From assembly GCF_004010195.1 (NCBI RefSeq), contig NC_057751.1, positions 6,769,934 through 6,833,933 on the forward strand: a stretch of 64,000 bases of DNA. The letters are read 5' to 3'. Both the position numbers and the translations under genes were made by a program. Positions within the stretch are counted from its first letter, which is position 1. Every line of letters starts with the position of its first letter. Positions 2,430 through 56,765 of the stretch are shown here, piece by piece. This DNA is from Chiloscyllium plagiosum. Lineage: Eukaryota. The notes beneath the pieces were generated by a model. It was not told where the DNA came from. It saw only the letters and a list, made by a program, of their open reading frames with translations, and did no database searches.

Positions 2430-2880
2430 GTTTCCTGCACATCCATCCACCCACCTCATCTACTATGTCAGTTGCTCCTAATGTGGTCTTCTCTCCATTG
2501 GGGAGTTAGGACACCAACTCTCAACGCTTCAGAGAACATCTCTGGGACACACGCACCAAATGATCCCACCGCCCTGTGGCTGACCACTTCAATTCCCTCT
2601 CCCACTCCCCCAAAGACATGCAAGTCCAGAGCCTCCTCCACCGCCAAATCCAAGCCATCAATGCCTGGAAGAAGAACGCCTCATCTTTCTACCTTGGGAC
2701 ACTTCAATCACACGGCATCAACATTGACTTCACCAGTTTCCACATCTCCTCCCTCCTCCCCCCCATGACTCCCCTCCACATTCCTTATGAAGGGCATATG
2801 CCCAAAACATCAATTCTCCTGCTTCTTGGATGCTGCCTGAACTGCTGTGCTTTTCCAACACCACACTTTTCAACACAGAC
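2430..2880 (+). mobile_element. Penelope-like element 3' end: degraded GIY-YIG endonuclease plus pLTR with degenerate hammerhead
   Basis: Remnants of CxxCGLxYIGE...RFREH...VADHFNS...LGTLQxHGINIDF. The pLTR reads CTTATGA-AGGGCATATGCCC-AAAAC-ATC at 2784-2811. Confidence 0.85.
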
Positions 2881-3116: not shown

Positions 3117-5419
3117 GACCAATGCGGAACTAAAAATCACTTTAGCAGCTGGATCACCTGCTCCTAAAAAGAAATAAAAAGCTTTTCCCTCTACCTCATA
3201 AAATTGGGGAATTAACTGAGCAAATAGAGTTGCCTCCATCCTCACATCTGAGCCAGTGTGTCTTCATGAAATACAGCAGAGTCAGATTTCAAACTTACCA
3301 GAAATTCCCTCTTGGCTTTTTCCCCTGTTTCATTCCTTGCCTGTCTCCTGAAGTTATAATTCTGCTGCTCCAAATTTCATCTCCCTGCCATTGTGCTATT
3401 TTATTATCCCCAGTTTCCATCTGTAAACCATGGCCCCTGTTTTTTAAAGTTTGCATTCCCTGGCTTTCCGGTTAAATTCTAATCCCAAAAGGACTTGCTA
3501 AGTCTTTTTACTGTTTGAGAGAGAGAATATTTAAATCCTCAAAAGTATCTCCACCTATTTCTGCTAGCAATCTGTTGGCTTTGAATGCAGACATTACTCC
3601 ACTGTAACAATGCAAATTTAAGAAAGCCTTTTGCAGTTTGTTTCCTTATAATTTAGTTTAAAAGTGACAATGCACTTACTCTCGTTGTTACATATCATCT
3701 GTGCTTTCAAATCAAGGCAAGACCCCCCAGTTTGTGATGGCCAGTCACCAGTTTGTCCTGGAGGGTTAAACAGACATGCCTAACATGTGCCAAATTCCAT
3801 GGGATTCACTGAGGACTTCACCAGACAGGCAAGCAGTCACTGAATTCAAACGCACAAATTTTCTGGTGCTTTTAAAAACAACATGTTTTGGAATTTAAAA
3901 TAAGAGGTGTCAAAATATTTTGGGATTCTGATCTATGATCATACAAGAACTCACATGCTGAAATTGTGGCATGTGTTCTTTGATGTGCAGTTAACTGTGT
4001 AAGTGGTGTCACAATTTGCTCAAGGGTATAACTCCCTTTTCTGAGCATAGAGCATTCTGTGCTTTCAAACCTCAGCCTAAGGGGGAGGGGGATACCAGTC
4101 ATGCAGGGAAGCAGTGTGAGGAGGAGAATAAATTGTGATAATTATTAGTTAATGCTGAGGCACAAACCCATTGTTGCAGACACAGATATGCTTGTGTAAA
4201 AATTGCTCCAAGTCAGAAATCTCTGAACCATCATCAGAAAATGCTGAGCTTGCTGAGAAATGTGAATTGATGTAGAAATAGTGCAGTCAATGAATGCTCT
4301 CTGAACTCGTGTATGCTAGGTTAAGTCCCAGATAATTTGAAAAATCTGCTTCCTGTCTTCATTCATATTCCAAGTTAAGTGTTTGATTACCTGAACATGA
4401 AGTATGCTATAATTTGGTAAAATTTACCTTTCATTTACTGAGTTACTCTCACTTGATGGACTGGCTTAATGGTCTCAAACTGCACATTTATCCTGCTGCT
4501 CTTGAAGCCATCAGCAAATTCATAATCGTTGAGAGAAAGTAACAAAAAGGACATTTATCCTGAAGCATGCAGTTGGAAAACTGCCCTCCAAACACTACTT
4601 TCAAATCGGACTTAGCAGGAGAATTTAATACATTGTTCCACAAGTGAACCAAGAGCAATTGGCAAGGGATATTTCCTCTAATTTTGCCCTTCTTAACTTG
4701 GATCGCTGATGTTTTCAGGAGGCTTCTCAACTGTACAAGCTTCACAGCCTCACCTGATCCACCAAAGGGCAATGTGTAACAAGTACGACAAGAGCTCACT
4801 CCCTCACTTTTATCCTCCTTTCTCCATAGACCAAGAGTACTGAGGCCAGGGATATCAGTCCCTCTGCTTCTCAAAATGGAATGGAAATGGAACATTAGGC
4901 ACCGTATGGGTTACATATTCATAGCTGATTGCAGCCTGGTGATCGCTTTTTCTCATGTTCAGTTGTTCCTTTTATAAACTTTCATATGCAGCTCTTCATT
5001 GTCGTATTGACATTGTTCTGATCTTCATGCAGCCTCGTACTTTTCAGACTGGAGGCTTTTCTTCATGTGGATTCACTTTCACTGGGGGAAGGTCGCAGTT
5101 CAGATAACAAACATTCGTTTCCAGGAGGAGGTTAGCAGCTTTAGAAGGGAAACGGGGTTCTCAACATGTTTTAATTCCTGAACCAGTGCAGTATCTCATC
5201 CTCACTACCCTCACCTCTTCCTATTTCTGTAATCCACAGTGTAATGCCCTGGGATATCTCTGCTCCTTTAATGTGGAACCACCCCAGATTTAATTGCTGC
5301 ATCCTTGGTGATCATTCCTGTCAGTGTCAAGGTCTTTGTTTTAAAATTCTCCACCTAAACTTCTCCACTTTGCTACCTCTTGTTCCGATTCGAAGATATT
5401 CATGACAATCTATTGCTTT

Positions 5420-5586
5420 GTGTGGTGCTGGAAAGGTATAGCGGGTCAGGCAGCATCAAAGGAGCAGGAGAGTCGACGTTTCTGGTATAACCCTTCATCA
5501 GGAATGAAGATGCTGCCTGACCAGCTGTGCTTTTCCAGTGTCACACTTTGAGTCTGCTCGCCAGCATCTGCAGTCCTTGCATCCTC
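5420..5586. mobile_element. 167-bp fold-back Penelope-pLTR mini-element with 12-bp TSD
   Basis: Perfect direct repeat ATCTATTGCTTT at 5408-5419 and 5587-5598. Imperfect inverted arms at ~5420-5457 and 5509-5546. Confidence 0.85.
5468..5505 (-). ncRNA. Minimal type I hammerhead ribozyme motif
   Basis: Minus strand reads ATTC-CTGATGA-A-GGGTTATACCA-GAAAC-GTC-GACTC. Core boxes and GUC site are intact; stem II has one mismatch. Confidence 0.75.
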
Positions 5587-7554
5587 ATCTATTGCTTTAA
5601 CCAAGCTTCTGACCGTCTACTTTAATACCACTTAACATCAAGTTTTGTGTGACACTGCCATCATCCAGTGAGGCATTTCATCACATTAAAAGATGCTACA
5701 TTGATATATACATTTCTGTTGCCCTTTAGCACACTCAGAGTAATTAAGTAAGAATTGCTCCCCAATGTACAGTGCTCATGCCATTCTTAATTAAGATATT
5801 TTCAAATGTTCTCCACTGTTGAAATGGAGGACTGTAAATAATACTTAAAATTGACAGTTGCAGTTGGCTATGCTACTGAAAAATAAAAGTTGTCTCTCAG
5901 AAAACTACAGTCACCCTGTATGCACGCAGAACATACAAATATACCCCGAAGTTGGAAACCACTGTGCAGGATTTCGTTTTGGGGAGAAGTTTGTACTATT
6001 CTGCTATTGTGGGGTTCAAGAGAGTTGTGGCTAAATATTGCAGGTGATTTTTATTATTGTGCAACTTTACCTTGCATTTGAGTACAGTAAATATGATCTA
6101 TTCACAGGCCAAGGCAGTACCTTCATCACAAAACTGCTTTTATGAAACTTCTTGTAGTCAGGTGATTCTACACAACGTCCCGCTGATGATATAAAATCTT
6201 ACTTGCATGGTCACATCAACACTTTACACTAAGTCTCGCTCTCCTCCACCAAACCTCTTACTCCACCAGTCACATCTTGTTATTTACATTTCCTTATCTG
6301 ACACAAATCACTTTGCTTGCAGTAGCTTTATTTATCAGTAGCTGCTGATGGAAGTGAATGGGATCTCAGAAGGTGCAACCATCCCCAGGCTGGGTAAAAC
6401 CAATAATTTTTTTTCTGTGGGAGAACATAATACTAGCAGAGGAAATAGCTCTGGTTATTTGATTTTAGAACATTAAGTACATTTACTTGCTGATCGAAAT
6501 AAGATGTAATATATGTACTTCACAACGATAAAATGAGATTGAAAACTATTTTGTGATTTATTTTTTGAGAAAATGGCAGAAGGAACATTTTCCTTTCAAA
6601 TGGCTTTGAATAGGAAGGAGAAAGTGTGTATCTGGTTGAATGATTGGACATGTGGCCTGAATGGACCAAATTATCTTTTCTCACTTTCAGACTTAGAGCT
6701 GTGAAATCAGTAACAAACACGACAATGATGTTTATACTGAACCTAATTTGTGGATTGCAGAGTGAACTTCCTCAGTGTTCTATTCAACACAAAACGTGCA
6801 TTTCGTGCTGATTCAGAAAAACTCATGCCAATTAATAGGAATCTGGTATGTGGAAACATGGTTTTGCAGTAAAGGCAACATTTTCTTGAGCAAGCAAATT
6901 AAAAAATTGCAGATGCTGAAAACCTAAAACAAGTCTGGATTGCTGTATGCACTGGAAGTACTCAGCGTGTTAATAACATCTATAAAGAAAAGCACACAAT
7001 TCATGTTTCCATGTAATGATCTGCTTTTTTTTTTGAGAGTCTGCTGGCTGCCACGTATTTGCATACTATTCAACGAGTTTACAGAACCCGTTTAATCTGA
7101 GTAGACTCCAACTTCACGGGTTGGTGGTTGCAGGCTCAGATTCCGCTCACCTTTTCAAAGTTATTGTTGTGGAATCAAAGGTCTACAGCATGGAAATGGG
7201 CTCTTCAGCCCAGTTTGATCTTGCTGTTCAGTTTTCATAATGAAACTACTCCCAATTGCCTGCACTTGATCCATACCCCTCCATACCTGTCCCATCCATT
7301 AGCCTGTCTCAATGTTTCTTTCATGACAAAATTGCACTTGCTTCCATTGAGTCTGCTTTTGTCACCCCTTGTCATTTTTGAGTCTGATACAAGATAATAC
7401 AATAGGATGATCTTGGTAGTGAACCAACAGCGTTGAGCAGCAGCTGAAAACCAAAGGTAACAACATCCAAGTACATGGAAAGCCTGACAATCTTGAGGCA
7501 GGGGTTCGTCACTGAACAGAACAGGAAATTAAGGTAAAATGAGCAAAATGAAGA

Positions 7555-12290: not shown

Positions 12291-12619
12291 CTCAGAGGCT
12301 CCCTCTTCCAAACACCCAGGAATCAAAAACAATGGACATGATACTGCATGACGAAGAAATTGTGTGATTAAAACACATTGACTTATTGCTACAAGTTATA
12401 TGTTGCCAATTAGATGCTCTAAGGGAGTGCCAAATTCATAATAAATGGAATGTAGACCTATTTCTAACTATATGCGGGGGAAAATTCTCAGTGGGGTTGG
12501 CAAATACACCATTTTACATTATGAATGTTTGGGACTGAAGATGCAACATTGGTTAGTTAGCGGAGCATGCCAGGGAAACAATGAATTTGAAGCTTCTCAT
12601 TTGATAGTGAATTCCTAGC

Positions 12620-13758
12620 ATCATAGAGATATACAGCATGGAAACAGACCCTTCAGTCCAACTCTTCCAACTCAACTGGATATCCAATTTAGTCACGTCC
12701 CGTTTGCCAGCATTTGACCTATAGTCCTCTAAATCCTTCTTATTCATAGATCCAAACAAATGCATTTTAAATGTTGTAATTGCACCAGCCTCCTCCACTT
12801 CCTCTGGCAGCTCATTCCATACATGCGCCATCCTCTGCTTGAAAAAGGTATCTGAGGTCCTTTTAAATCTTCCCCCTCTCACCGTAAACTTATGCCCTCT
12901 AGTTTTGGACTTGCCTACCCCAGGAAAGACCATGCCTAGTTACTCTATCCATGCCCCTTATAATTTTGTAAACCTCTATAATGTAACCCCTCATCCTCCG
13001 ACACTCCAGCGAAAATAACCCCAGCCTATTCAAATTCAGATAAGTGAGAGGTGCTGCATTTTGGAAAGGCAAATCATAGCAGGAATTGCACACTTAATGG
13101 TAAGATCATAATTTGTGTTGGTGAACAAAGAGACGGAGTGCAGGTTCACAGTTCCTTGAAAGTGGAGTCACAGATAGATAGGATTGTGAAGGTGGTGTTT
13201 GGTTTGCTTTCCTTTATTGGTCAGGGTATTGAGTACAGGAGTTGGGAGGTCATGTTACGGCTGCACGGAACATTGGTGAGGCCAGTTTTGGAATATTGCA
13301 TGCAATCCTGGTCTCCTCCTATCGGAAGGATGCTGTGAAACTTGAAAGATTCGGAAATGATTTACAAGGATGTTTCCAGGGTTGGAGGGTTTTTGAACTA
13401 CAGGAAGAGGCTGAATAGGCTGAGTCCCTCAGGGGCAACGTTTTCATGGAGATGATGGTGCATGTATGGAATGAGTTGCCAGAGGAAGTGGTGGAGGCAG
13501 GTACAATTACAACATTTAAAAAGGCCTCTGGATGGGTATCTGAATAGGAAGCGTTGAGAGAGATAGTGGCCAAGTACTGGCAAATGAGACGAGACTAGGT
13601 TGGGATATCTGGCCAGGATGGATGAGTTGGACTGAAGTTTCCAAGCTCTACATCTCTATGACTGACTCTCCCTATAGCTCAAACCCTCTAAAACAGGCAA
13701 CATCCTTGTCAATCTCTTCTCAACTCTTTCAAGTTCATAACATCCTTCCTAGAGCAGA
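12620..13758 (-). mobile_element. CR1 LINE 3' fragment split by an opposite-strand CR1
   Basis: Minus-strand CR1 at 12620-13032 resumes at ~13665 (CCTATTCA...CTCTCCCTATAGCTC, which is contiguous in the 15705 copy). Confidence 0.85.
13036..13664 (+). mobile_element. CR1 LINE 3' fragment with internal deletion, nested in CR1
   Basis: LHFGKAN..VQVHSSLKV..LVRPVLEYCMQSW, then a jump to the 3' end and an ATGACT tail. Confidence 0.88.
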
Positions 13759-15704: not shown

Positions 15705-16490
15705 CATACAGTCATAAAAATGTACAAACAGACCCTTCAATCCAACTCGTCCATGCTGACCAGATACCCTAAACTAATCAAGTCCCATTTTCCAGCACTT
15801 GGCCCATATGCCTTCAAAATGCTTCCTATACATATACCCACCCAGAGGCCTTTTCAATATTGTTCTACCAGCCTCCACCACTTCCTCTGGCAGCCAAATC
15901 CATGCAAGCACCATCCTCTGCATGAAGTTGTTACCCCTTAGGTCTATTTTAAATTTTTCCCCTCCCACCGTAGATCTACACCCTCTATTTCTGGACTCAC
16001 CTACCCCAAGGAAAAGGCCTTGTCTATTTACTCTATCCATGTCTCTCATGATTTTATAAACCTCTGTCACATCACCCCTCAGCCTCCGATGCTCCAGGGA
16101 AAACAGCTGCAGCCTGTTCAGCCTCTCCCTATAGCTCAAACTCTCCAACCATGGCAACGTCCTTGTAAATCTTTTCTGAACCATTTTAAGTTTCACAATA
16201 TCTTTCCGATAGGAAGGAGACCAGAATTGCACACAATATTCCAACAGTGGCCTAACCAACATCCTGTACAGCCGCAACATGACCTCCCAACTCCTGTACT
16301 CTGACCACAAAAGGAACGCATACCAAACTCCTCCTTCACTATCCTGTCTGCCTACAACTCCACTTTCAAGGAACTATGAACCTGCACCCCAAGGTCTCTT
16401 TGTTCAGCAACACTCCCCAGGACCTTGCAAATCAGAGTAGGAATTATACACTTAATGGTATTTTCAAAATGCAGCACCTCACATTTATCA
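15705..16490 (-). mobile_element. CR1 LINE 3' fragment inserted into a Deu-type SINE
   Basis: 178-aa ORF with LVRPLLEYCVQFWSP..LFSLEHRRLRGD. SINE halves lie at ~15620-15700 and ~16490-16690. Confidence 0.9.
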
Positions 16491-21880: not shown

Positions 21881-23272
21881 CTCTTTGAATGTTACTCCGC
21901 ATCCGTGACAAGATCATAACAGTCGGTTTAATGTAATCATCAGATTTTCAGGGACTAAGACAGTTGAAGCTTGTGGGGATTGTATAGGAAATTGAACTTG
22001 ATGGGGAATTTCAGCCATGATCTTGTTTGATTTGGAGTCATTTTGCCAAGTCTGCCTATTTTTGATGTGTCTTCTTTTTCTTCTGATGACATTAATGGAA
22101 GAGTTCTGCCTTGACATTAAAATGTTGCCTGCGAGGCTTTGTGGTTCACTGTCACATGGTCTCTAAGCAAAATGTTGCATTCTCTCGGGTTATAATTACT
22201 GATGTGACAGTATTGTAACTTAATATGATGTTGGCCGTAGACTCTTGTCACATACTCTCAAGTTAAATATAACTGCAAGGGAAAAGCTAAGACTGTTTGA
22301 AGAACCTGATTTGGTTCAGTTACTATGTAAATTTCTTTCCCATCTTAAGTGGCAGTAAAACTTGACTGTTTTCTAATAGATGACTGACGCATCAGTTCCA
22401 AGGCAGTAATTCAGTCACTGTCATAAACCACAAGAGCTAGAGTGAATTATTGCATTCAGCTCCATCCAAGCGGCATGCTTTTCTTTAATATTAAAGAAAA
22501 TGTCTCCTGCTTTTGTTTCTTTGCGGCATTGAGCTTAGAAAGATGCCTTTCAACTCAGTCCAATTGAGCAATACTAGTTTTTATAAAGCTGCTGCCTAGC
22601 TTACATTTCATTTGGCACAAATCCCTGATGTGGACACTTTTTCCATGTAGTCTGGAATACAAACTCATCTGGACCAGGTTCCTCCATTTTTAGTCAAGCC
22701 TTTCTTTGAGATATTTATCTATAAATGTGGGTCCATGGCTTCATCAGGACCTTCCTTTTGCTTTAGATTTCTCTCAAAAATATAATGCAAAAATCTTCTT
22801 CATCTCTCATTTATCTGTCCCTGAAATCATCTCTAAGTGGTCTCACTCATTGGTTGACACACTCTTCTACTTGTACCTTAATAAATGTGATTTCCTTCCA
22901 TGTCACACATCCTTCTGCACTCTGTTTTTGCATGTCATTCTTTTCTTGATACATGAAGCTATACCACAAAACTAACTAGAAGTTAAGACAGGAAGCAGTT
23001 ATTTGTTTGCTCGGACACTGGTTAGATCATGTTGTGTGGGCAAACACAGACAGGTTGGAATAAACCATGTTGTGATCTGAAGCCAGTGTGGAGGAGAGAC
23101 TAGAGTGTACATCTGGAGGGTTCATGCACTGATGATGGGAGAGATAACTGCAAATTAATCTACAAAGGAGGTGTGTTATTCTGTTAATAATGCACTGGAT
23201 GAGCTTCTTAAGTGCACCATTATATACAGGGCCAGTGCATATTGTGTAGAGGAGAATGCGCAGGGCATGTCA

Positions 23273-23888
23273 GGAGAAAGTGAGGACTTCAGGTGTTGGA
23301 GATCAGTGTTGAGAGAGTGGCGCTGGAAAAGCACAGGTCAGGCAGCATCCAAGGAACAGGAGTGTCAATGTTTCGGGCATAAGCCCTTCATAAGGAATGT
23401 GGGGGGAGGGGGACAAGAGGGGCGAGAGATAAATAGGAGGATGAGTGGGGCTGGGGGTGAAGGTAGCTTGGAAGGTGATAGGTACATGAAGGTGGCGGGG
23501 GGGTGATAGTGATAGGTGGGAGCGGAGGGTGGAGTGTATAGGTGGGAAGGAAGATGGACAGGTGGACAGTTCGAGAGGATGGTGCCACATTGGAGGGTTG
23601 GATCTGGGATATAAGATGGTGGGAGGGGAGATGAGTAAATTGGTGAAATTGACGTTGATGCAATGTGGTTGGCTTGGACTTAGCAGTATAGACAGCCTAG
23701 GACTTGAATGTCCTTGGCGGAGTGGGAGGGAGAGTTGAAGTGTTCAGCCAAAGGGCGATGGGGTTGTTTGGTGCACGTGTCCTGGAGATGTTCTCTGAAA
23801 TGTTCTGCAAGTTGGCATCTTGTCTCCCCAATGTAGAGGGCACCACATAGAGAGCAACGGACACAGTAGATGAGCTGTTTGGATGTGT
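23273..23888 (-). mobile_element. Penelope-like element 3' part (GIY-YIG plus pLTR with hammerhead variant)
   Basis: LIYCVRCSLCGALYIGETRCQLAEHFREH..LAEHFNS. pLTR minus strand reads CTTATGA-AGGGCTTATGCCC-GAAAC at ~23370-23394. Confidence 0.88.
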
Positions 23889-29914: not shown

Positions 29915-30402
29915 TAAAAGATGGAGCTGGAAAGGCACAGCAGGTCGGGCAGCATCAGGGGAGCAGGAGAGTTGACATTGAGTTGGGATCCTTCATTGGG
30001 AGTGGGGAGGGTGAAGGGAGCTGAGAAATAAATTGAGGGAGGGGTGAGGCAGGGGAAAGGTAGGTGATATGGTGATTGGTGGATGTATATATGGAGTTAT
30101 TGTGATTGGCCAGAGGGAAGGCTGGAGCGGATAGGTGAGGAGCAAGTTGGACAGGTTAGGTCCAGTCATAGGGGACAGGGAAGCGAGGGAAGGCTGGACA
30201 TGGGATGATGTTGGGAGTGGGGAGATTTTCAAGCTGGTGAACTCAGTTAAGGCCATTGGGCTGTCAGGTCTTGAGGCGCAATGAGGTTTTGTTCCTCCAG
30301 TTTGCATGTGGCCTTGTTTTGGCAGTGGAGGCAGCCCAGGATGGACATGATGCCAAGAGAGTGGGAGGAGAAGTTGAAATGGCTGGCAACTGGAAGGTGG
30401 TG
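29915..30402 (-). mobile_element. Degraded Penelope-like 3' end
   Basis: Collinear with 23273-23740 (GCTGGAAAGGCACAGCAGGTC...AGTTGAAATGGCTGGCAAC). The hammerhead is decayed. Confidence 0.7.
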
Positions 30403-30461
30403 TTAAGATAGCATGGTAGTTTGCTGGTTACAATTACTGAGACTAGCTTAAGGTTAGATTA

Positions 30462-32104: not shown

Positions 32105-33480
32105 TTCAAAGTCAACTGTGAGGTGCTGCATTTTGGAAAAACAATTCAGAGCAGGACTTATACAATTAATGATGAGGTCCTGGGAAGTGGTGCTGAACGC
32201 AGAGACCTTGGAGTGCAGGTTCATAGTTCCTTGAAAGTGGGGTCGCAGCTCGATAGGATAGTGAAGGCGACATTTGGTATGCTTTCCTTTATTGGTCAGA
32301 ATGTTGAGTACAGGAGTTGAGAGGTCATGTAGCAGTCATTGGTTAGCCAACGTTTGGAATATTGTGTGCAATTCTGGTCTCCCTTTCATCGGAAGGATGT
32401 TGTGAAACTTGAAAGGGCTCAGAAACGATTTACAAGGATGTTGCCAGGGTTGGAGGGTTTAACCTGTTGGGAGAAGCTGAATAGACTGGGGCTGTCTTCC
32501 CTGGAGCGTTGGAGGCTGAGGGGTGACCTTATTGAGGTTTATAAAATCATGAGGGGCATGGGTAGGATAAAGACAAGTCTCTTCCTTGGTTTGGGAGAGT
32601 CCAGAACTAGAGAGCATAGGTTTAGGTTGAGGGGGGAACAATTTCAAAGGGACCTAAGGAGCAACATTTTCACAGAGGGTGGTGTGTGTATGGAATGAGC
32701 TGCCAAAGGAAGTGGTGCAATTACAACATTTAAAGGCATCTGGATGCATACAGAGAAACCTTGATTATTTCAATGAGATGAGCAGGCACTATTTCATTCT
32801 AATAATTGATTATTCGGACAATCAATTTTAGCTTGAAAAGGAGAAGCTATACTGGTCTAATGCTCTGCTCTACAGGAGAATTTGTTTAATTCTGTAATTT
32901 TAACACGTCTGTCATTTAAACAAAATGATCTTTGCAGTCTGCAAATTACAGTTTAACATGAGAAGAACTAAACCTCATTAAACATGGTCCTGAATAGCTT
33001 CTACGATCACAAGACAATTTCCAGTATCAGTTTCTGGGAACTCAGTCTTGTGTCGAAAAAGATGGAAGTCCCACCTCACGCATGCATTTACATTCTCTGC
33101 TTTTTTTAAAAAAAAAAATGAATGGCCCGGTAAAGTGCCAGGAATACTGTACCTATATGGTAGAACGCTTACTTTTGCAAAGAGCTGTGTAACAACTCTC
33201 ACCTAAAAACTTTCCAGTCGCTGATGCTTGAGCTGCTTGTGTTTCTTTGTTTGTGCCAGAGTTTTCACATCATCTTCAGTACAGGCAACTCAAATACAGT
33301 ACACTTACCTCTGATGTGGGACCGTAAAATCTTCTCCAGATAATCAAGATTCCTCTGTATATGAATAGGAAGGTTTAGAGGAATATGAGCCAAGTGCTGG
33401 TAAATGGGACTGGATTAATTTCTGATATCTGGTCTGAAGGGTCTGTTTTCATTCTGTATATCCCTATGACACTGACTCTT
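32105..33480 (+). mobile_element. CR1 LINE 3' fragment interrupted by a MITE
   Basis: ORFs 32093-32320 and 32339-32698 are CR1 ORF2 pieces. The UTR resumes at 33358 (TATATGAATAGGAAGG). Confidence 0.9.
32751..33357. mobile_element. Tc1/mariner (Tigger/pogo-like) non-autonomous DNA transposon, 607 bp
   Basis: TIRs CAGAGAAACCTTGATTAT and (rc) CAGAGGAATCTTGATTAT (16/18 identical), TA on both sides (32749-50, 33358-59), splits a CR1 cleanly. Confidence 0.85.
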
Positions 33481-36960: not shown

Positions 36961-38848
36961 GGGACCACATGTCCTACTTCTTCTCCCATTTCTTGTGTTT
37001 CAGCACAGTACTAGGGAATTGATGCACCGTTCACGCTGAGATGAAAAAAATCAAGTGAAGCTACGTTTGCCTGCTCCGGTGACTGCACAAGATCCTATGG
37101 TACAGTACAAATAAGACTTAAGTTGTGAACTGGACAACATTCTTCCATAAATCAAAAGCTGACATTGCAAGATTGCCTGGTCATTTGGCTGTTATTGTTT
37201 GTGACCTTATTTATGTAAACTGGCTATTGTGTTTGCCTTTTTTTTGCAAAGTAGAAGTGGACTTTTACAAAGCAATCATTATGCATTCAGGGACAAGTCT
37301 AGGACAATGCTCCTTTCCTTCAGTGCATTGAAGTGTCACCTTAGATTATACTCTGAATACATTGAGGTGTCAATTGAATCCATGGTCCTCTAAAATCTGA
37401 TACAGATCATTTATGAAAAAAAAGGCTTGAGCATTCAACAACATGCGCAAGCACAAATGCACACTAAAATAATCTGAATAGGTTTCCACCATCTGCAGTG
37501 ACTTTGAATGTTGCCAAATTAGACATGAATTGATTCTCTGTCGTCAGTGTATGCCTGTCTGTGAGGTGAGAGCTTCATGTTCGACTGCTCATTATCTCAG
37601 GACTTACAGGTAAACATAACTAAGAGTTGTAGCGATAGAATAACCCCCAAGGTCTCTTGAACATCTATCAAATGAATGCAGTGTCAATGTGACAGGATGT
37701 TAGATCCAAAAGTAACGAAGCATCTCTGACCAAGCCATCAAATTTATAATTAGCGTTGAGCTCATCACTGTATTTTTAAATACGCAGGGACAAATCACTT
37801 AGAATTTATTGGAATTTATGGTCTGAGACTGATGGTGCGATATTAGCAGCTGAATGCGTACAATTTAGTATGATGAAAGCCACGTTTCTTCCAGTTATAT
37901 TCATAACGTTTGTTACTCTGTTTAATTTAAGACCTCAATTAAAAAATAACACAGACCAACACAATACCAGTAATTTTAGTACAATATAGCAATGCTACCA
38001 AGACTATCTGCAGATGTAATAAGTTAAACGTTAGCAGATTTTTTTTTTGTTTGGGTAAGTGTCATTTTCAGGAAATTTAGAGAATCGTAGACTACTGGAA
38101 GACAGAAGCCTTCTAACACATTGTATCCATTTTTTTCTCCTCACCCTCTGTTAGCCCAGATTGTCCGGACTGAATCATCAACCATATATTTAAGACTATT
38201 TCCAGCAAGCTTTCATCGGGCTTTTTTTAATGTAGTCATGGTTCCTGGTTCCACCATCCTTTTTCATAGGGTGTTTCCCTCTTTGAGCTTTCAAGTTTGT
38301 GCTCAGGCAATTTTATGCTGTTCACCAAATTATGTACACAGCATGCTTCTGCGGTGCCCAGCTTGAGTTATTGTGTGCTCACCAAAGGCAGAAGTTATTT
38401 CTGATGTGGCACCACATTCATACCCTACCTCTTGCAAAAATGCCATCCCGTATTCCCAATTCCTCCGCCTCCGCTGTATCTGCTCCCAGGAGGACCAGTT
38501 CCTCCACAGAACACACCAGATGGCCTCTTCCTTTAGAGACCACAATTTCCCTTCCCACGTGGTTAAGGATGCCCTCCAATGCATCTCGTCCACATCCCGC
38601 ACCTCCGCCCTCAGACCCCACCCCTCCAACCGTAACAAGGACAGAACGCCCCTGGTGCTCACCTTCCACCCAACCAACCTTCGCATAAACCAAATCATCC
38701 GCCGACATTTCCGCCACCTCCAAAAAGACCCCACCACCAGGGATATATTTCCCTCCCCACACCTTTCCGCCTTCCGCAAAGACCGTTCACTTCGTGACAA
38801 CCTGGTCAGGTCCACGACCCCCTACAACCCACCCTCCCATCCTGGCAC

Positions 38849-39119
38849 NNNNNNNNNNNNNNNNNNNNNNNNNNNNNNNNNNNNNNNNNNNNNNNNNNNN
38901 NNNNNNNNNNNNNNNNNNNNNNNNNNNNNNNNNNNNNNNNNNNNNNNNNNNNNNNNNNNNNNNNNNNNNNNNNNNNNNNNNNNNNNNNNNNNNNNNNNNN
39001 NNNNNNNNNNNNNNNNNNNNNNNNNNNNNNNNNNNNNNNNNNNNNNNNNNNNNNNNNNNNNNNNNNNNNNNNNNNNNNNNNNNNNNNNNNNNNNNNNNNN
39101 NNNNNNNNNNNNNNNNNNN
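38849..39119. other. Assembly gap (N run)
   Basis: 271 N. Confidence 1.
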
Positions 39120-39243
39120 CAACCTCCCCCCGCCCCTATCACCTTCATCCCCTCCCCCAATCACCTATTGTACTCTATGCTACTTTCTCCCCACCCCTAC
39201 CCTCCTCTAGCTTATCTCTCCATGCTTCAGGCTCTCTGCCTTT

Positions 39244-39279
39244 ATTCCTGATGAAGGGCTTTTGCCCGAAACATCGATT
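39244..39279 (+). ncRNA. Minimal type I hammerhead ribozyme motif
   Basis: ATTC-CTGATGA(39248)-A-GGGC-TTTT-GCCC-GAAAC-ATC-GATT with a perfect stem II. GTC>ATC is consistent with CpG decay. Confidence 0.8.
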
Positions 39280-39569
39280 TTACTGCTCCTTGGATGCTGC
39301 CTGAACTGCTGTGCTATTCCAGCACCACTCATCCAGAACCACATTCATAGCCCAGCTGCACACCAGCTGAAGCTCTGCCTCAGGAACTGCCATTCACAGT
39401 CCTCACAATGGGTGATAAATTACCAGGATCGTTCATGTGACAACTATACCAGGGTGTGTTGGGAACTACACAAAAGCTATTTCGTTCCTGTTCAATTTAC
39501 CAGGGGTGTGTTGCGATTAGTGGGATAATACTCTTAATGTGAGCTTAAAATCTTGGAATTTGCTTCACG

Positions 39570-45200: not shown

Positions 45201-45283
45201 GTCGTGATCAAATTGAATAGTAAAACTGGTTGAATGGCCTGTGTTCCTACTCATTGGCAAATCATGACTAGGTCAAATTTTCA

Positions 45284-45475
45284 AGGAGAAAGTGAGGACT
45301 GCAGATGCTGGAGATCAGAGCTGAAAAGTGTGTTGCTGGAAAAGCGCAGCAGGTCAGACAGCATCCAAGGAGCAGGAGAATCGACGTTTTGGGCATAAGC
45401 CCTTCTTCCTGATTCTCCTGCTCCTTGGATGCTGCCTGACCTGCTGCGCTTTTCCAGCAACACATTTTTCAGCTC
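45284..45475. mobile_element. 192-bp fold-back Penelope-pLTR mini-element with ~12-bp TSD
   Basis: 65-bp inverted arms at 45318-45382 and 45411-45475 (63/65 identical). TSD GTCAAATTTTCA (45272-45283) / GTCAAATTTCCA (45477-45488). Confidence 0.88.
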
Positions 45476-46039
45476 AGTCAAATTTCCACACTCCCTTCAG
45501 AGATGTTTGAATGCTAATGCAGCAAAATCACCCAAGACATGAGATAATTGTTCTCAGGTGATGGCTCCTTCATCTGTTATTAATTTTGTAGATAAATTGC
45601 CACAATGTTTTTTCATAGTAGGGGTGAGCATGGCTACTTGGTCTTAGAGGAAAGGCATTGTGAAGTTCCCCCCCAAAGAAAAGCTGCTGTTAAAATATTT
45701 CCGTAACCATGACCATAAGGATATCCCAGATGTTTGGTCTTAATCTTTCAGAACCCAAAAGATCACCTCCCTCCTCCTCAAATTGACACAGAGGGGATGA
45801 CAGTTGAGGCATTCATGATCAAGCCATTCAGATCCTTGCACAACTAGAATAGGGTAGTTTCCCAGAAAGGCCAAGGGGAGAAATACTGGGAGGTTTCACA
45901 AAAATGGGGAATGCAGTTGCAGATGGGGAAGGAATAACAAAACAATTGGCAGAAGCAGGTATCTGCCAGCTCAAAAGAATACTCAATGTTGAGGAGGTAT
46001 GGAAGGAGGAGGAACTGTTGGCCATTGGTCAGACTATTG

Positions 46040-55281: not shown

Positions 55282-55375
55282 AGGAGAAAGTGAGGACTGC
55301 AGATGCTGGATATCAGAGCTGAAAGTGTGTTGCTGGAAAAGCGCAGCAGGTCAGGCAGCATCCAAGGAACGGGGA

Positions 55376-55412
55376 AAATCGACGTTTCGGGCATAAGCTC
55401 TTCTTCAGGAAT
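55376..55412 (-). ncRNA. Minimal type I hammerhead ribozyme motif
   Basis: Minus strand reads ATTC-CTGAAGA-A-GAGC-TTAT-GCCC-GAAAC-GTC-GATT. Core intact, one stem II mismatch. Confidence 0.72.
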
Positions 55413-55580
55413 GAGGAAAGTGTGTCCAGCAGGCTAAGATAAAAGGTAGAGAGAAGGGACTTGGGGGAGGGGTGTTGGAAATGCGATAGATGGAGGGAGT
55501 TGAAACTTTATTGCTGGAACAGCACAGCAGGTCAGATGGAGGGAGGTCAAGGTGAGGATAATAGGCCGGAGGGGGTTGGG

Positions 55581-55697
55581 GACGGTGTGTGGGACGCAGT
55601 GAGGGTCAGGCTGGGGGCGGTGAGTGGGACGCAGTGAGGGTCAGGCTGGTGACGGTGTGTGGGACACAGTGAGGGTCAGGCTGGGGGCGGTGTGTGG
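55581..55697. repeat. 35-bp GC-rich minisatellite, ~3.3 copies, runs into the gap
   Basis: Unit G(A/G)CGGTG(T/A)GTGGGAC(G/A)CAGTGAGGGTCAGGCTGG(G/T) starting at 55581, 55616, 55651 and 55686. Confidence 0.92.
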
Positions 55698-55816
55698 NNN
55701 NNNNNNNNNNNNNNNNNNNNNNNNNNNNNNNNNNNNNNNNNNNNNNNNNNNNNNNNNNNNNNNNNNNNNNNNNNNNNNNNNNNNNNNNNNNNNNNNNNNN
55801 NNNNNNNNNNNNNNNN
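55698..55816. other. Assembly gap (N run)
   Basis: 119 N. Confidence 1.
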
Positions 55817-56273
55817 GATGCAATAGATGATGTGTGTGGAGGTGCAGGTGAATTTGTGGCAGATATGGAAGGATCCCTTGGGGCCTTGGAGGGAAAGTAA
55901 GGGGGGAGGTGTGGGCGCAAGTCTTGCATTTCTTGCAGTTGAAGGGGAAGGTGCCGGGAGTGGAGGTTGGATTAGTGGGGGGTGTGGACCTGACGAGGGA
56001 GTCATGGAGGGAGTGGTCTTTTTGGACCGCTGATAGGGGAGGGGAGGGAAATATATCCCTGGTGGTGGGGTCCGTTTGGAGGTGGCAGAAATGATGTGGA
56101 TGATACGCTGTACATGGGAGTTGGTGGGGTGGTAGGTGAGGACCAGTGGGGTTGTGTCCTGGTGGCAGTTGGAGGGGCGGGGCTCAAGGGCGGAGGAGCG
56201 GGAAGTGGAAGAGATGCGGTGAAGGGCATCGTCGACCACGTCTGGGGGGAAATTGCGGTCCTTGAAGAAGGAG

Positions 56274-56550
56274 TCCCTGTCCCCCTTAGTCCAAGAACTC
56301 CCCACCTACGTTCGGGACACCACCCACGCCTTCCACCTCCATGATTTTCGCTTCCCCGGTCCCCAATGCCTTATCTTCACCATGGACATCGAGTCCCTGT
56401 ACACCTCCATCCCCCATCACGAAGGATTCAAAGCCCTCCGCTTCTTCCTTTCCCGCCGTACCAACCAGTACCCTTCCACTGACACCCTCCTTCGACTGAC
56501 TGAACTGGTCCTCACCCTGAACAACTTCTCTTTCCAATCCTCCCACTTCC
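56274..56550 (+). mobile_element. Inverted Penelope RT segment
   Basis: LPTYVRDTT..IFTMDIESLYTSIPH..LVLTLNNFSF is the PLE RT motif A region, on the opposite strand to 55282-56273. Confidence 0.9.
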
Positions 56551-56765
56551 TGCTCAGCTAGAGAGTTGACCACTCCCCTTTTATTATACAGGTCACTTCT
56601 AAAACATGGCCACTTCGGCCTGAAGTCTCCATACTCTAATCTCTGGAACAAACTAGTCTAATTGAAACAGAGTGCTTTATTACCCCTCTGAAAAAGAAAC
56701 AAGGACGCAGTATCCTTGAAAAAAGGAACAGCTTTTTAGAAAAAAAAGGGACCAGCTTTGTGACA
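56551..56765 (-). mobile_element. 5' part of another LTR copy (18922 family), inverted
   Basis: Reverse complement begins TGTCACAAAGCTGGTCCC and ends ...GGTCAACTCTCTAGCTGAGCA. Confidence 0.85.

What the first reader, a model, noticed from the sequence alone, without database searches (positions are those of the whole stretch)
5408..5598. 167-bp hairpin mini-retroelement with an intact-core hammerhead ribozyme in its loop
Seen: a discrete insert bounded by a perfect 12-bp TSD (ATCTATTGCTTT), made only of two inverted pieces of the Penelope terminal repeat, with CTGATGA-stemII-GAAAC-GTC between the arms on the minus strand and no coding sequence. Known: Penelope-like elements carry minimal type I hammerheads in their pLTRs that lack a real stem III and are thought to cleave as dimers. 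Inference: with the similar unit at 45284, this may be a non-autonomous, ribozyme-bearing fold-back family (retrozyme- or MITE-like) mobilised in trans by the PLE RT/GIY-YIG protein. It could instead be the extreme end of ordinary 5'-truncation plus inversion.
Basis: partly seen in the sequence, partly recalled or inferred. Interest (0 to 1): 0.75.

Follow-up and report, generated by a model that had tools for sequence, protein, structure and literature searches.

The report
Dead-end Penelope retrotransposon hairpin insertion
This 167-base hairpin is a real but old and damaged stub of a Penelope-type jumping gene, one of roughly 100,000 such stubs estimated in this genome, likely each made afresh when both cut DNA strands copy the start of the element's RNA, so it is probably not a self-spreading ribozyme family but a natural record of a poorly understood insertion step.

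Summary
The insert (5420-5586, perfect 12-bp TSD) is real. It is two head-to-head pieces of a Penelope-like (PLE) terminal repeat, one with the ~30-bp tail and one without. The hammerhead is not intact: the conserved G10.1-C11.1 pair is G·A, stem II is weak, and no Rfam hammerhead model matched. Its exact junction occurs once in the genome, and the 45284 unit has a different junction and opposite tail polarity. An evenly spaced 1.55-Mb census found 54 repeat-only hairpins (about 10^5 genome-wide) plus 24 with PLE coding body between the arms. 64 of 67 pairs have exactly one tailed arm, and 154 of 327 arm 5' ends fall within about 10 nt of one boundary just before the hammerhead. Some junctions recur (one 1,383 times), but across several subfamilies, with both arms changing together and both polarities. 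That fits microhomology hot spots rather than descent. Best reading: dead-end product of double priming at two RT start sites, run-off at the RNA 5' end and end-joining (inferred). The anatomy is published; I found no paper with these counts. The scan has noted this before in many genomes.

The parts
5408..5419 (.). left target-site duplication, ATCTATTGCTTT
   Evidence: exact 12-bp repeat
5420..5505 (-). direct, tail-less pLTR arm (model positions 1-87), starting at the ATTCC boundary; 77 of 86 identical to the census consensus
5475..5501 (-). decayed minimal type I hammerhead: CTGATGA, extra A, stem II with 1-nt deletion and 11.1 = A (5483), GAAAC-GTC; notional cut after 5475
   Evidence: family base at 5483 also seen
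5493..5509 (-). junction: 6-bp snap-back palindrome with 5-nt loop (includes 3 filler bases, 5506-5508) joining arm position 1 to position 50 of the other arm
   Evidence: sequence; exact 20-mer unique in G000
5509..5586 (+). inverted, tail-bearing pLTR arm (model positions 50-128; tail about 5556-5586); 65 of 77 identical to consensus
5587..5598 (.). right target-site duplication
45272..45488 (.). second, independent fold-back (insert 45284-45476; 12-bp TSD with 1 mismatch); tail on the hammerhead-side arm, other arm begins at model 33, core boxes lost

Best explanation
The element is the shortest form of a head-to-head Penelope-like insertion, likely made once when the PLE protein cut both target strands about 12-15 bp apart and primed reverse transcription from both ends. 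Inferred steps: (1) one end starts at the tail+ site and the other at the tail- site about 30 nt upstream on PLE RNA; (2) both use the start sites nearest the RNA 5' end, so the cDNAs run off within about 130 nt at or near the ATTCC boundary just before the hammerhead, likely the RNA 5' end; (3) the two cDNA 3' ends are trimmed and joined through 1-4-nt microhomology or snap-back filler; (4) gap filling gives the TSD. The product lacks the RNA downstream of the tail that a related PLE needs for binding, so it is predicted to be dead on arrival and then decays. Shown: anatomy, TSDs, tail asymmetry, 5' boundary, junction spectrum, decay of this copy.
For: Census of 160 evenly spaced 10-kb loci: 350 arms, 78 head-to-head pairs, 54 repeat-only (TSD 36 of 54) and 24 with body or an N gap between (TSD 15 of 24); shuffled control 2 of 400. 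One tailed and one tail-less arm in 64 of 67 pairs (11 pairs with a short arm dropped; p 3e-16). 5' ends: 154 of 327 arms within -10..+9 of the boundary, 92 downstream, only 60 spread over -240..-11 and 21 beyond; 49 of 54 hairpins have at least one arm starting within 9 nt. 8,010 head-to-head junctions in one young subfamily; the first 50 sites fall into 25 types, the common ones explained by 1-3-nt microhomology (hand count). Recurrent junction: TSD in 30 of 30, several subfamilies that also occur body-attached, both polarities, no meaningful same-side inheritance. In vitro, the Anolis PLE protein cleaves and extends both strands, starts RT at two internal sites that bound the tail, needs RNA to +172 of the ORF, and does not need hammerhead cleavage (PMC11167929).
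Against: No RNA 5' end was seen: laying 3,039 raw RNA reads from one run gave no place where many molecules begin, so 'RNA 5' end' is inferred from DNA only. My repeat model starts at the boundary, so old arms whose upstream body was not among my 53 references would be miscounted as stops. One complex junction occurs in two copies with unrelated flanks, 98% alike over 222 bp, which shows that unit-level copying can happen. The side-inheritance test gave a nominal p of 0.04, though the effect was 0.0003 against a distance of 0.043 and rests on two shared differences. The 27:3 polarity bias is unexplained. The biochemistry is from a Poseidon-clade element, not this one.
Confidence: 0.8

Rival explanations
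1. A non-autonomous fold-back family (retrozyme- or MITE-like) that is transcribed and copied as a unit by the PLE protein; the hammerhead would process its RNA.
For: One junction recurs exactly 1,383 times, mostly with one polarity (27 of 30). One pair of copies shares a complex junction at unrelated sites. Read-through RNA across a fold-back junction exists (14 reads). PLE cis sequences can act in trans (PMC3846280).
Against: This copy's junction is unique, and the related position-50 jump occurs 11 times with both polarities and different continuations. Recurrent-junction copies span subfamilies with both arms changing together, and their tail-less ends vary from model 46 to 102. Own-arm distance is 1.6% against 4.3% between copies. 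Hammerheads in a hairpin lie on opposite strands or are single, so a single transcript cannot form the dimer, and this one lacks G10.1-C11.1.
Confidence: 0.06
2. Single-primed TPRT followed by snap-back self-priming of the cDNA (or priming on an antisense template, as proposed for Adineta) makes the inverted arm.
For: The junction of this copy holds a 6-bp snap-back palindrome; palindromes at inverted junctions were read as self-priming in PMC3846280.
Against: Fold-back of one cDNA cannot add the 30-nt tail that only the other arm has, or explain TSDs at both ends and the 64 of 67 tail asymmetry, without a second priming event.
Confidence: 0.09
3. The 5' pile-up marks an RT stall at the hammerhead structure, or hammerhead cleavage, rather than the RNA 5' end.
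For: The boundary sits at the edge of stem I; no transcript start was observed; the 45284 unit has an arm starting exactly at the cut site (model 33).
Against: Cleavage predicts ends at model 33, not 1: 9 census arms at 31-35 against 4 and 7 in the neighbouring bins, and 10 of 100 junctions at 33 against 18 at 35 and 13 at 30 (hand count). A structural stall should occur on entering the fold, not after copying through it (inference).
Confidence: 0.15

Closest known systems
Canonical EN+ Penelope-like insertion with inverted 5' pLTR, 30-40-bp tail and TSD (Adineta Pen2a_Av, PMC3846280; overview Fig. 2 legend of PMC8557442)
   Same: Head-to-head pLTR arms, tail on one end only, TSD, palindrome at the junction, hammerhead at the pLTR start.
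   Different: No ORF at all between the arms; both arms stop within the first 50 nt of the repeat; about 10^5 such stubs estimated in one genome.
Minimal type I hammerheads of metazoan PLEs (PMC4209133)
   Same: CUGAUGA, extra A before stem II, GAAAC-GUC with no loop III; that paper already notes dual motifs 100-700 bp apart on opposite strands and many solo motifs from truncated PLEs.
   Different: This copy has lost the G10.1-C11.1 pair that the paper calls highly conserved.
Non-LTR retrozymes (bioRxiv 10.64898/2026.07.22.740005) and non-autonomous Chlamys elements such as MRC1 (PMC8557442)
   Same: Non-coding, PLE-pLTR-derived; retrozymes carry a type I hammerhead.
   Different: Those are head-to-tail tandems; here the arms are head-to-head, with one broken hammerhead and no sign of descent as a unit.
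L1 twin priming (recalled, not read here)
   Same: Two primers from one staggered cut, inversion, microhomology join, TSD.
   Different: In L1 the second primer anneals at variable internal sites of a poly(A) RNA; here both start points are fixed, about 30 nt apart, and copy overlapping RNA.

Membership tests
EN+ Penelope-like element insertion | Terminal repeat joined elsewhere to an RT plus C-terminal GIY-YIG ORF | tested here: met
   RVT_1 E 1e-5 (below curated cut-off) in L155 and GIY-YIG E 8e-5 (above cut-off) in L179, both upstream of same-strand arms
EN+ Penelope-like element insertion | Inverted 5'-truncated copy with 30-40-bp tail on one end | tested here: met
   64 of 67 census pairs
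EN+ Penelope-like element insertion | Variable-length TSD | tested here: met
   12 bp here; 10-22 bp, mode 14-15, in 81 sites
Neptune clade | Zn-finger-like linker between RT and EN; RT tree placement | tested here: inconclusive
   CxxC-type motif seen by eye in translations; no tree built
Minimal type I hammerhead (PLE type) | CUGANGA, extra base, GAAA, palindromic ACGU, NUH | tested here: met
Minimal type I hammerhead (PLE type) | G10.1-C11.1 pair closing a stable stem II | tested here: not met
   11.1 = A; among 60 census arms with intact boxes 58 have C, 2 T, none A (207 examined)
Minimal type I hammerhead (PLE type) | Self-cleavage as a dimer or with protein | not testable with these tools
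   needs an assay
Non-LTR retrozyme | At least two head-to-tail units each with a complete hammerhead | tested here: not met
   one unit, arms inverted; definition
Non-LTR retrozyme | Circular RNA / cleaved monomer RNA | tested here: inconclusive
   no discrete RNA ends in one poly(A) single-cell run; library unsuited
Propagating non-autonomous family (MITE/SINE-like) | Many copies with the same junction and ends, inherited as a unit | tested here: not met
   one two-copy exception

The most novel reading that the evidence does not exclude
The run-off copies are a 'strong-stop' intermediate: PLE reverse transcription normally starts about 100-130 nt from the RNA 5' end on both strands of the cut, runs off, and must jump to another RNA position to copy the body, which is how pLTRs, tails and inversions all arise. 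The ~10^5 hairpins would be double failures of that jump, and the short pLTR + ORF-start + pLTR units (L040, L079, L189, L260) misdirected jumps.
Probability: 0.25. Interest if true: 0.75.

Novelty: new variant of a known kind. Interest (0 to 1): 0.36.

Why it matters
How PLEs make their inverted ends and one-sided tails is called undefined in PMC8557442 and unvalidated in PMC11167929. Tens of thousands of young, TSD-bounded two-arm stubs give an in vivo record with sharp predictions (two start sites, one per strand; a 14-15-bp stagger; run-off at a fixed 5' boundary) that an existing in vitro system could test. For annotation, such hairpins can be mistaken for MITEs, microRNA precursors (the 45284 unit scores a weak mir-335 match) or ribozyme genes. 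The single copy at 5408 is unremarkable in itself.

Tried and rejected
Rfam scan: no hammerhead family matched anywhere in the window, so it is uninformative. Pfam on three window fragments and one endonuclease fragment: no hits. PDB sequence search with an RT fragment: none. An apparent peak of 5' ends at the hammerhead cut site was mostly one minisatellite in L144 and was rejected; one search showed no peak either. The idea that this copy's stem II variant marks a subfamily was rejected: 22 matches against 52,812 for the intact 18-mer, and the 20 examined lie in unrelated contexts. The 30 best genome hits were selected by likeness to the query, so they were not used for frequencies. TSDs around unpaired arms: 33 of 141, 9 of them minisatellite artefacts, control 20 of 300, so weak. 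No clear target-site motif beyond 64% A+T in 81 TSDs. RNA: no RNA holder on record was listed; one raw poly(A) single-cell run gave no discrete starts or ends and a second laid no reads. The element's flanks matched nothing in the census loci. Paper searches for a described fold-back family or a twin-priming model for PLEs listed none by title or abstract start; most subscription papers and Repbase are not searched, and no supplements were read (those of PMC11167929 may bear on the RNA ends).

Full report
Observation. The window holds a perfect 12-bp direct repeat at 5408-5419 and 5587-5598 around 167 bp. Read on the minus strand, the insert is an inverted piece of the terminal repeat (model positions 128 to 50, with the tail), three filler bases, and a direct piece (positions 1 to 87, without the tail). 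It folds better than all 200 shuffles. Contigs from a run identical to the window cover both flank-element junctions, and so do contigs of another organism whose flank differs at 21 letters and 6 gaps in 461, so the insertion is real and predates that split. The arms are 77 of 86 and 65 of 77 identical to the census consensus, whereas young copies are 97-100% alike: this is an old copy.

The hammerhead. CTGATGA, an extra A and GAAAC-GTC are present (5501-5475). But stem II has lost one base and the base at 11.1 is A, so the G10.1-C11.1 pair, called highly conserved in PMC4209133 (parts 1-2 of 4 read), cannot form. The isolated stem is -2.1 against -6.5 kcal/mol for a young copy, and none of the 60 census arms with intact boxes has A there (207 examined). 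The variant is sporadic: 22 matches against 52,812 for the intact 18-mer. The predicted fold pairs CUGAUGA with the junction. That paper found single minimal motifs inactive and dimers weak; this hairpin has one motif. 'Intact core' is therefore not confirmed.

Parent element. Bodies attached upstream of the same repeat encode RT (RVT_1, E 1e-5) and GIY-YIG (E 8e-5), with DKG and CxxC-type motifs seen by eye: an EN+ PLE, possibly Neptune type (no tree built). G000 is a 3.56-Gb genome; earlier scan notes call similar genomes shark, which I did not test.

Census. To avoid the bias of a similarity search I took 160 evenly spaced 10-kb stretches (1,549,042 non-N bases). They hold 350 arms and 78 head-to-head pairs: 54 repeat-only (TSD in 36) and 24 with body or an N gap between (TSD in 15); control 2 of 400. 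A few pairs are mis-paired, split or cut by a locus end and were not removed. Scaled up this is about 124,000 hairpins (93,000-162,000), or 83,000 counting only those with a TSD; only chromosome-size contigs were sampled. Of 67 pairs with both arms reaching position 76, 64 have exactly one tailed arm (p 3e-16; 11 pairs dropped). Of 327 arms (12 lacked usable upstream sequence and 11 in L144, mostly a minisatellite, were dropped), 154 have their 5' end within -10..+9 of the ATTCC boundary, 92 lie downstream, 60 are spread over -240..-11 and 21 beyond. Caveat: the model begins at that boundary and extension relied on 53 body references. TSDs centre on 14-15 bp (81 sites).

Do breakpoints recur? 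This copy's 20-nt junction occurs once. A related jump to position 50 occurs 11 times, with both polarities (7:4) and different continuations. In the census most junctions differ. In one young subfamily there are 8,010 head-to-head junctions; the first 50 sites fall into 25 types, the commonest 9, 6, 4, 3 and 3 times, each with 2-3-nt microhomology (hand count). The commonest occurs exactly 1,383 times. In its first 30 copies all have TSDs, polarity is 27:3, the tail-less end varies from position 46 to 102, and the two arms share their subfamily letters in 19 of 20 readable copies across three classes that also occur in body-attached arms. In 24 of the 30 with enough overlap, the arms of one copy differ by 1.6% and arms of different copies by 4.27% (same side) and 4.30% (opposite side); the side effect is nominally p 0.04 but rests on two shared differences. 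A family copied as a unit would need each subfamily change twice, once per arm. Fresh formation at microhomology hot spots explains the pattern directly. Against this, one complex junction has exactly two copies, 114 kb apart with unrelated flanks and 98% alike; one of them has the tail on both arms and no evident TSD, which looks like a single local repair or conversion copy. The 45284 unit has another junction and the opposite polarity.

Mechanism. PMC11167929 (parts 1-2 of 4 read) shows that a PLE protein cleaves and extends both strands, is predicted to dimerise, starts RT at two internal sites that bound the tail, needs RNA some 55-60 nt beyond the first start site, and does not need hammerhead cleavage. 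Combined with the census, the simplest model (inferred) is double priming at the two sites, run-off at the RNA 5' end, microhomology or snap-back joining, and fill-in of the stagger. The product would lack the downstream binding segment and be dead. The RNA start was not observed: one raw RNA run showed no discrete ends. A cleavage signature was sought and not found. Short units in which the start of the ORF is joined back to the repeat's 5' boundary (similar joints in contigs) suggest that run-off cDNAs can jump, which is the basis of the novel case.

Comparison. Inverted pLTR, one-sided tail and TSD are described as typical in PMC3846280 and PMC8557442 (passages); opposite-strand pairs of minimal hammerheads are noted in PMC4209133. 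Retrozymes are head-to-tail tandems with complete motifs (bioRxiv 10.64898/2026.07.22.740005, part 1 of 5 and passages), which this is not. Six searches listed no paper on repeat-only fold-backs or on double priming in PLEs. The scan's index lists 328 similar findings in at least 34 genomes; the eight shown mostly reach the same reading, which I had recorded before opening them. They are not independent evidence.

Verdict. A real, ordinary, decayed member of a very large class of PLE stubs. The family-of-ribozymes reading is not supported. The interest lies in the population statistics as a test bed for the PLE insertion mechanism.

Noticed in passing
L283:1384-1640 and L284:1384-1605 (G000:C1, about 1.80 and 1.91 Mb): Only two copies of one complex junction, 98% alike, unrelated flanks; L283 has the tail on both arms, 5 bp of inverted flank and no evident TSD. 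A likely one-off local copy of a whole hairpin.
   Followed up: partly
L144:2227-2720: About ten tandem ~44-bp units grown from repeat positions 33-79 beside a fold-back: a minisatellite born from a pLTR.
   Followed up: partly
L040:7332-7500, L079:3639-3891, L189:9136-9431, L260: Short units in which the start of the PLE ORF is joined back to a pLTR piece, mostly at its 5' boundary; possible template jumps or short tandem (retrozyme-like) derivatives.
   Followed up: partly
L192-L221: At the commonest junction the arm trimmed to position 14 carries the tail in 27 of 30 copies; the two cDNAs seem to be processed unequally.
   Followed up: no
window 5500-5507 and census arms: The sequence at the boundary (TCATTCC in several subfamilies) fits the recalled Initiator consensus YYANWYY with its A at model position 1; motif from memory, not tested.
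   Followed up: no
window 45341-45462: The second hairpin gives a below-threshold Rfam match to mir-335 (38 bits, gathering 64): a likely false microRNA call.
   Followed up: no
window 2779-2878, 23272-23743, 29922-30427, 38287-39331, 55282-56657: Five more PLE pieces with pLTR and partial body; about eight repeat copies in 64 kb.
   Followed up: partly
window 12553-12939, 15774-16373, 32333-32698: Decayed ORF fragments that resemble CR1/L2 LINE C-termini (recalled motif, not tested).
   Followed up: no
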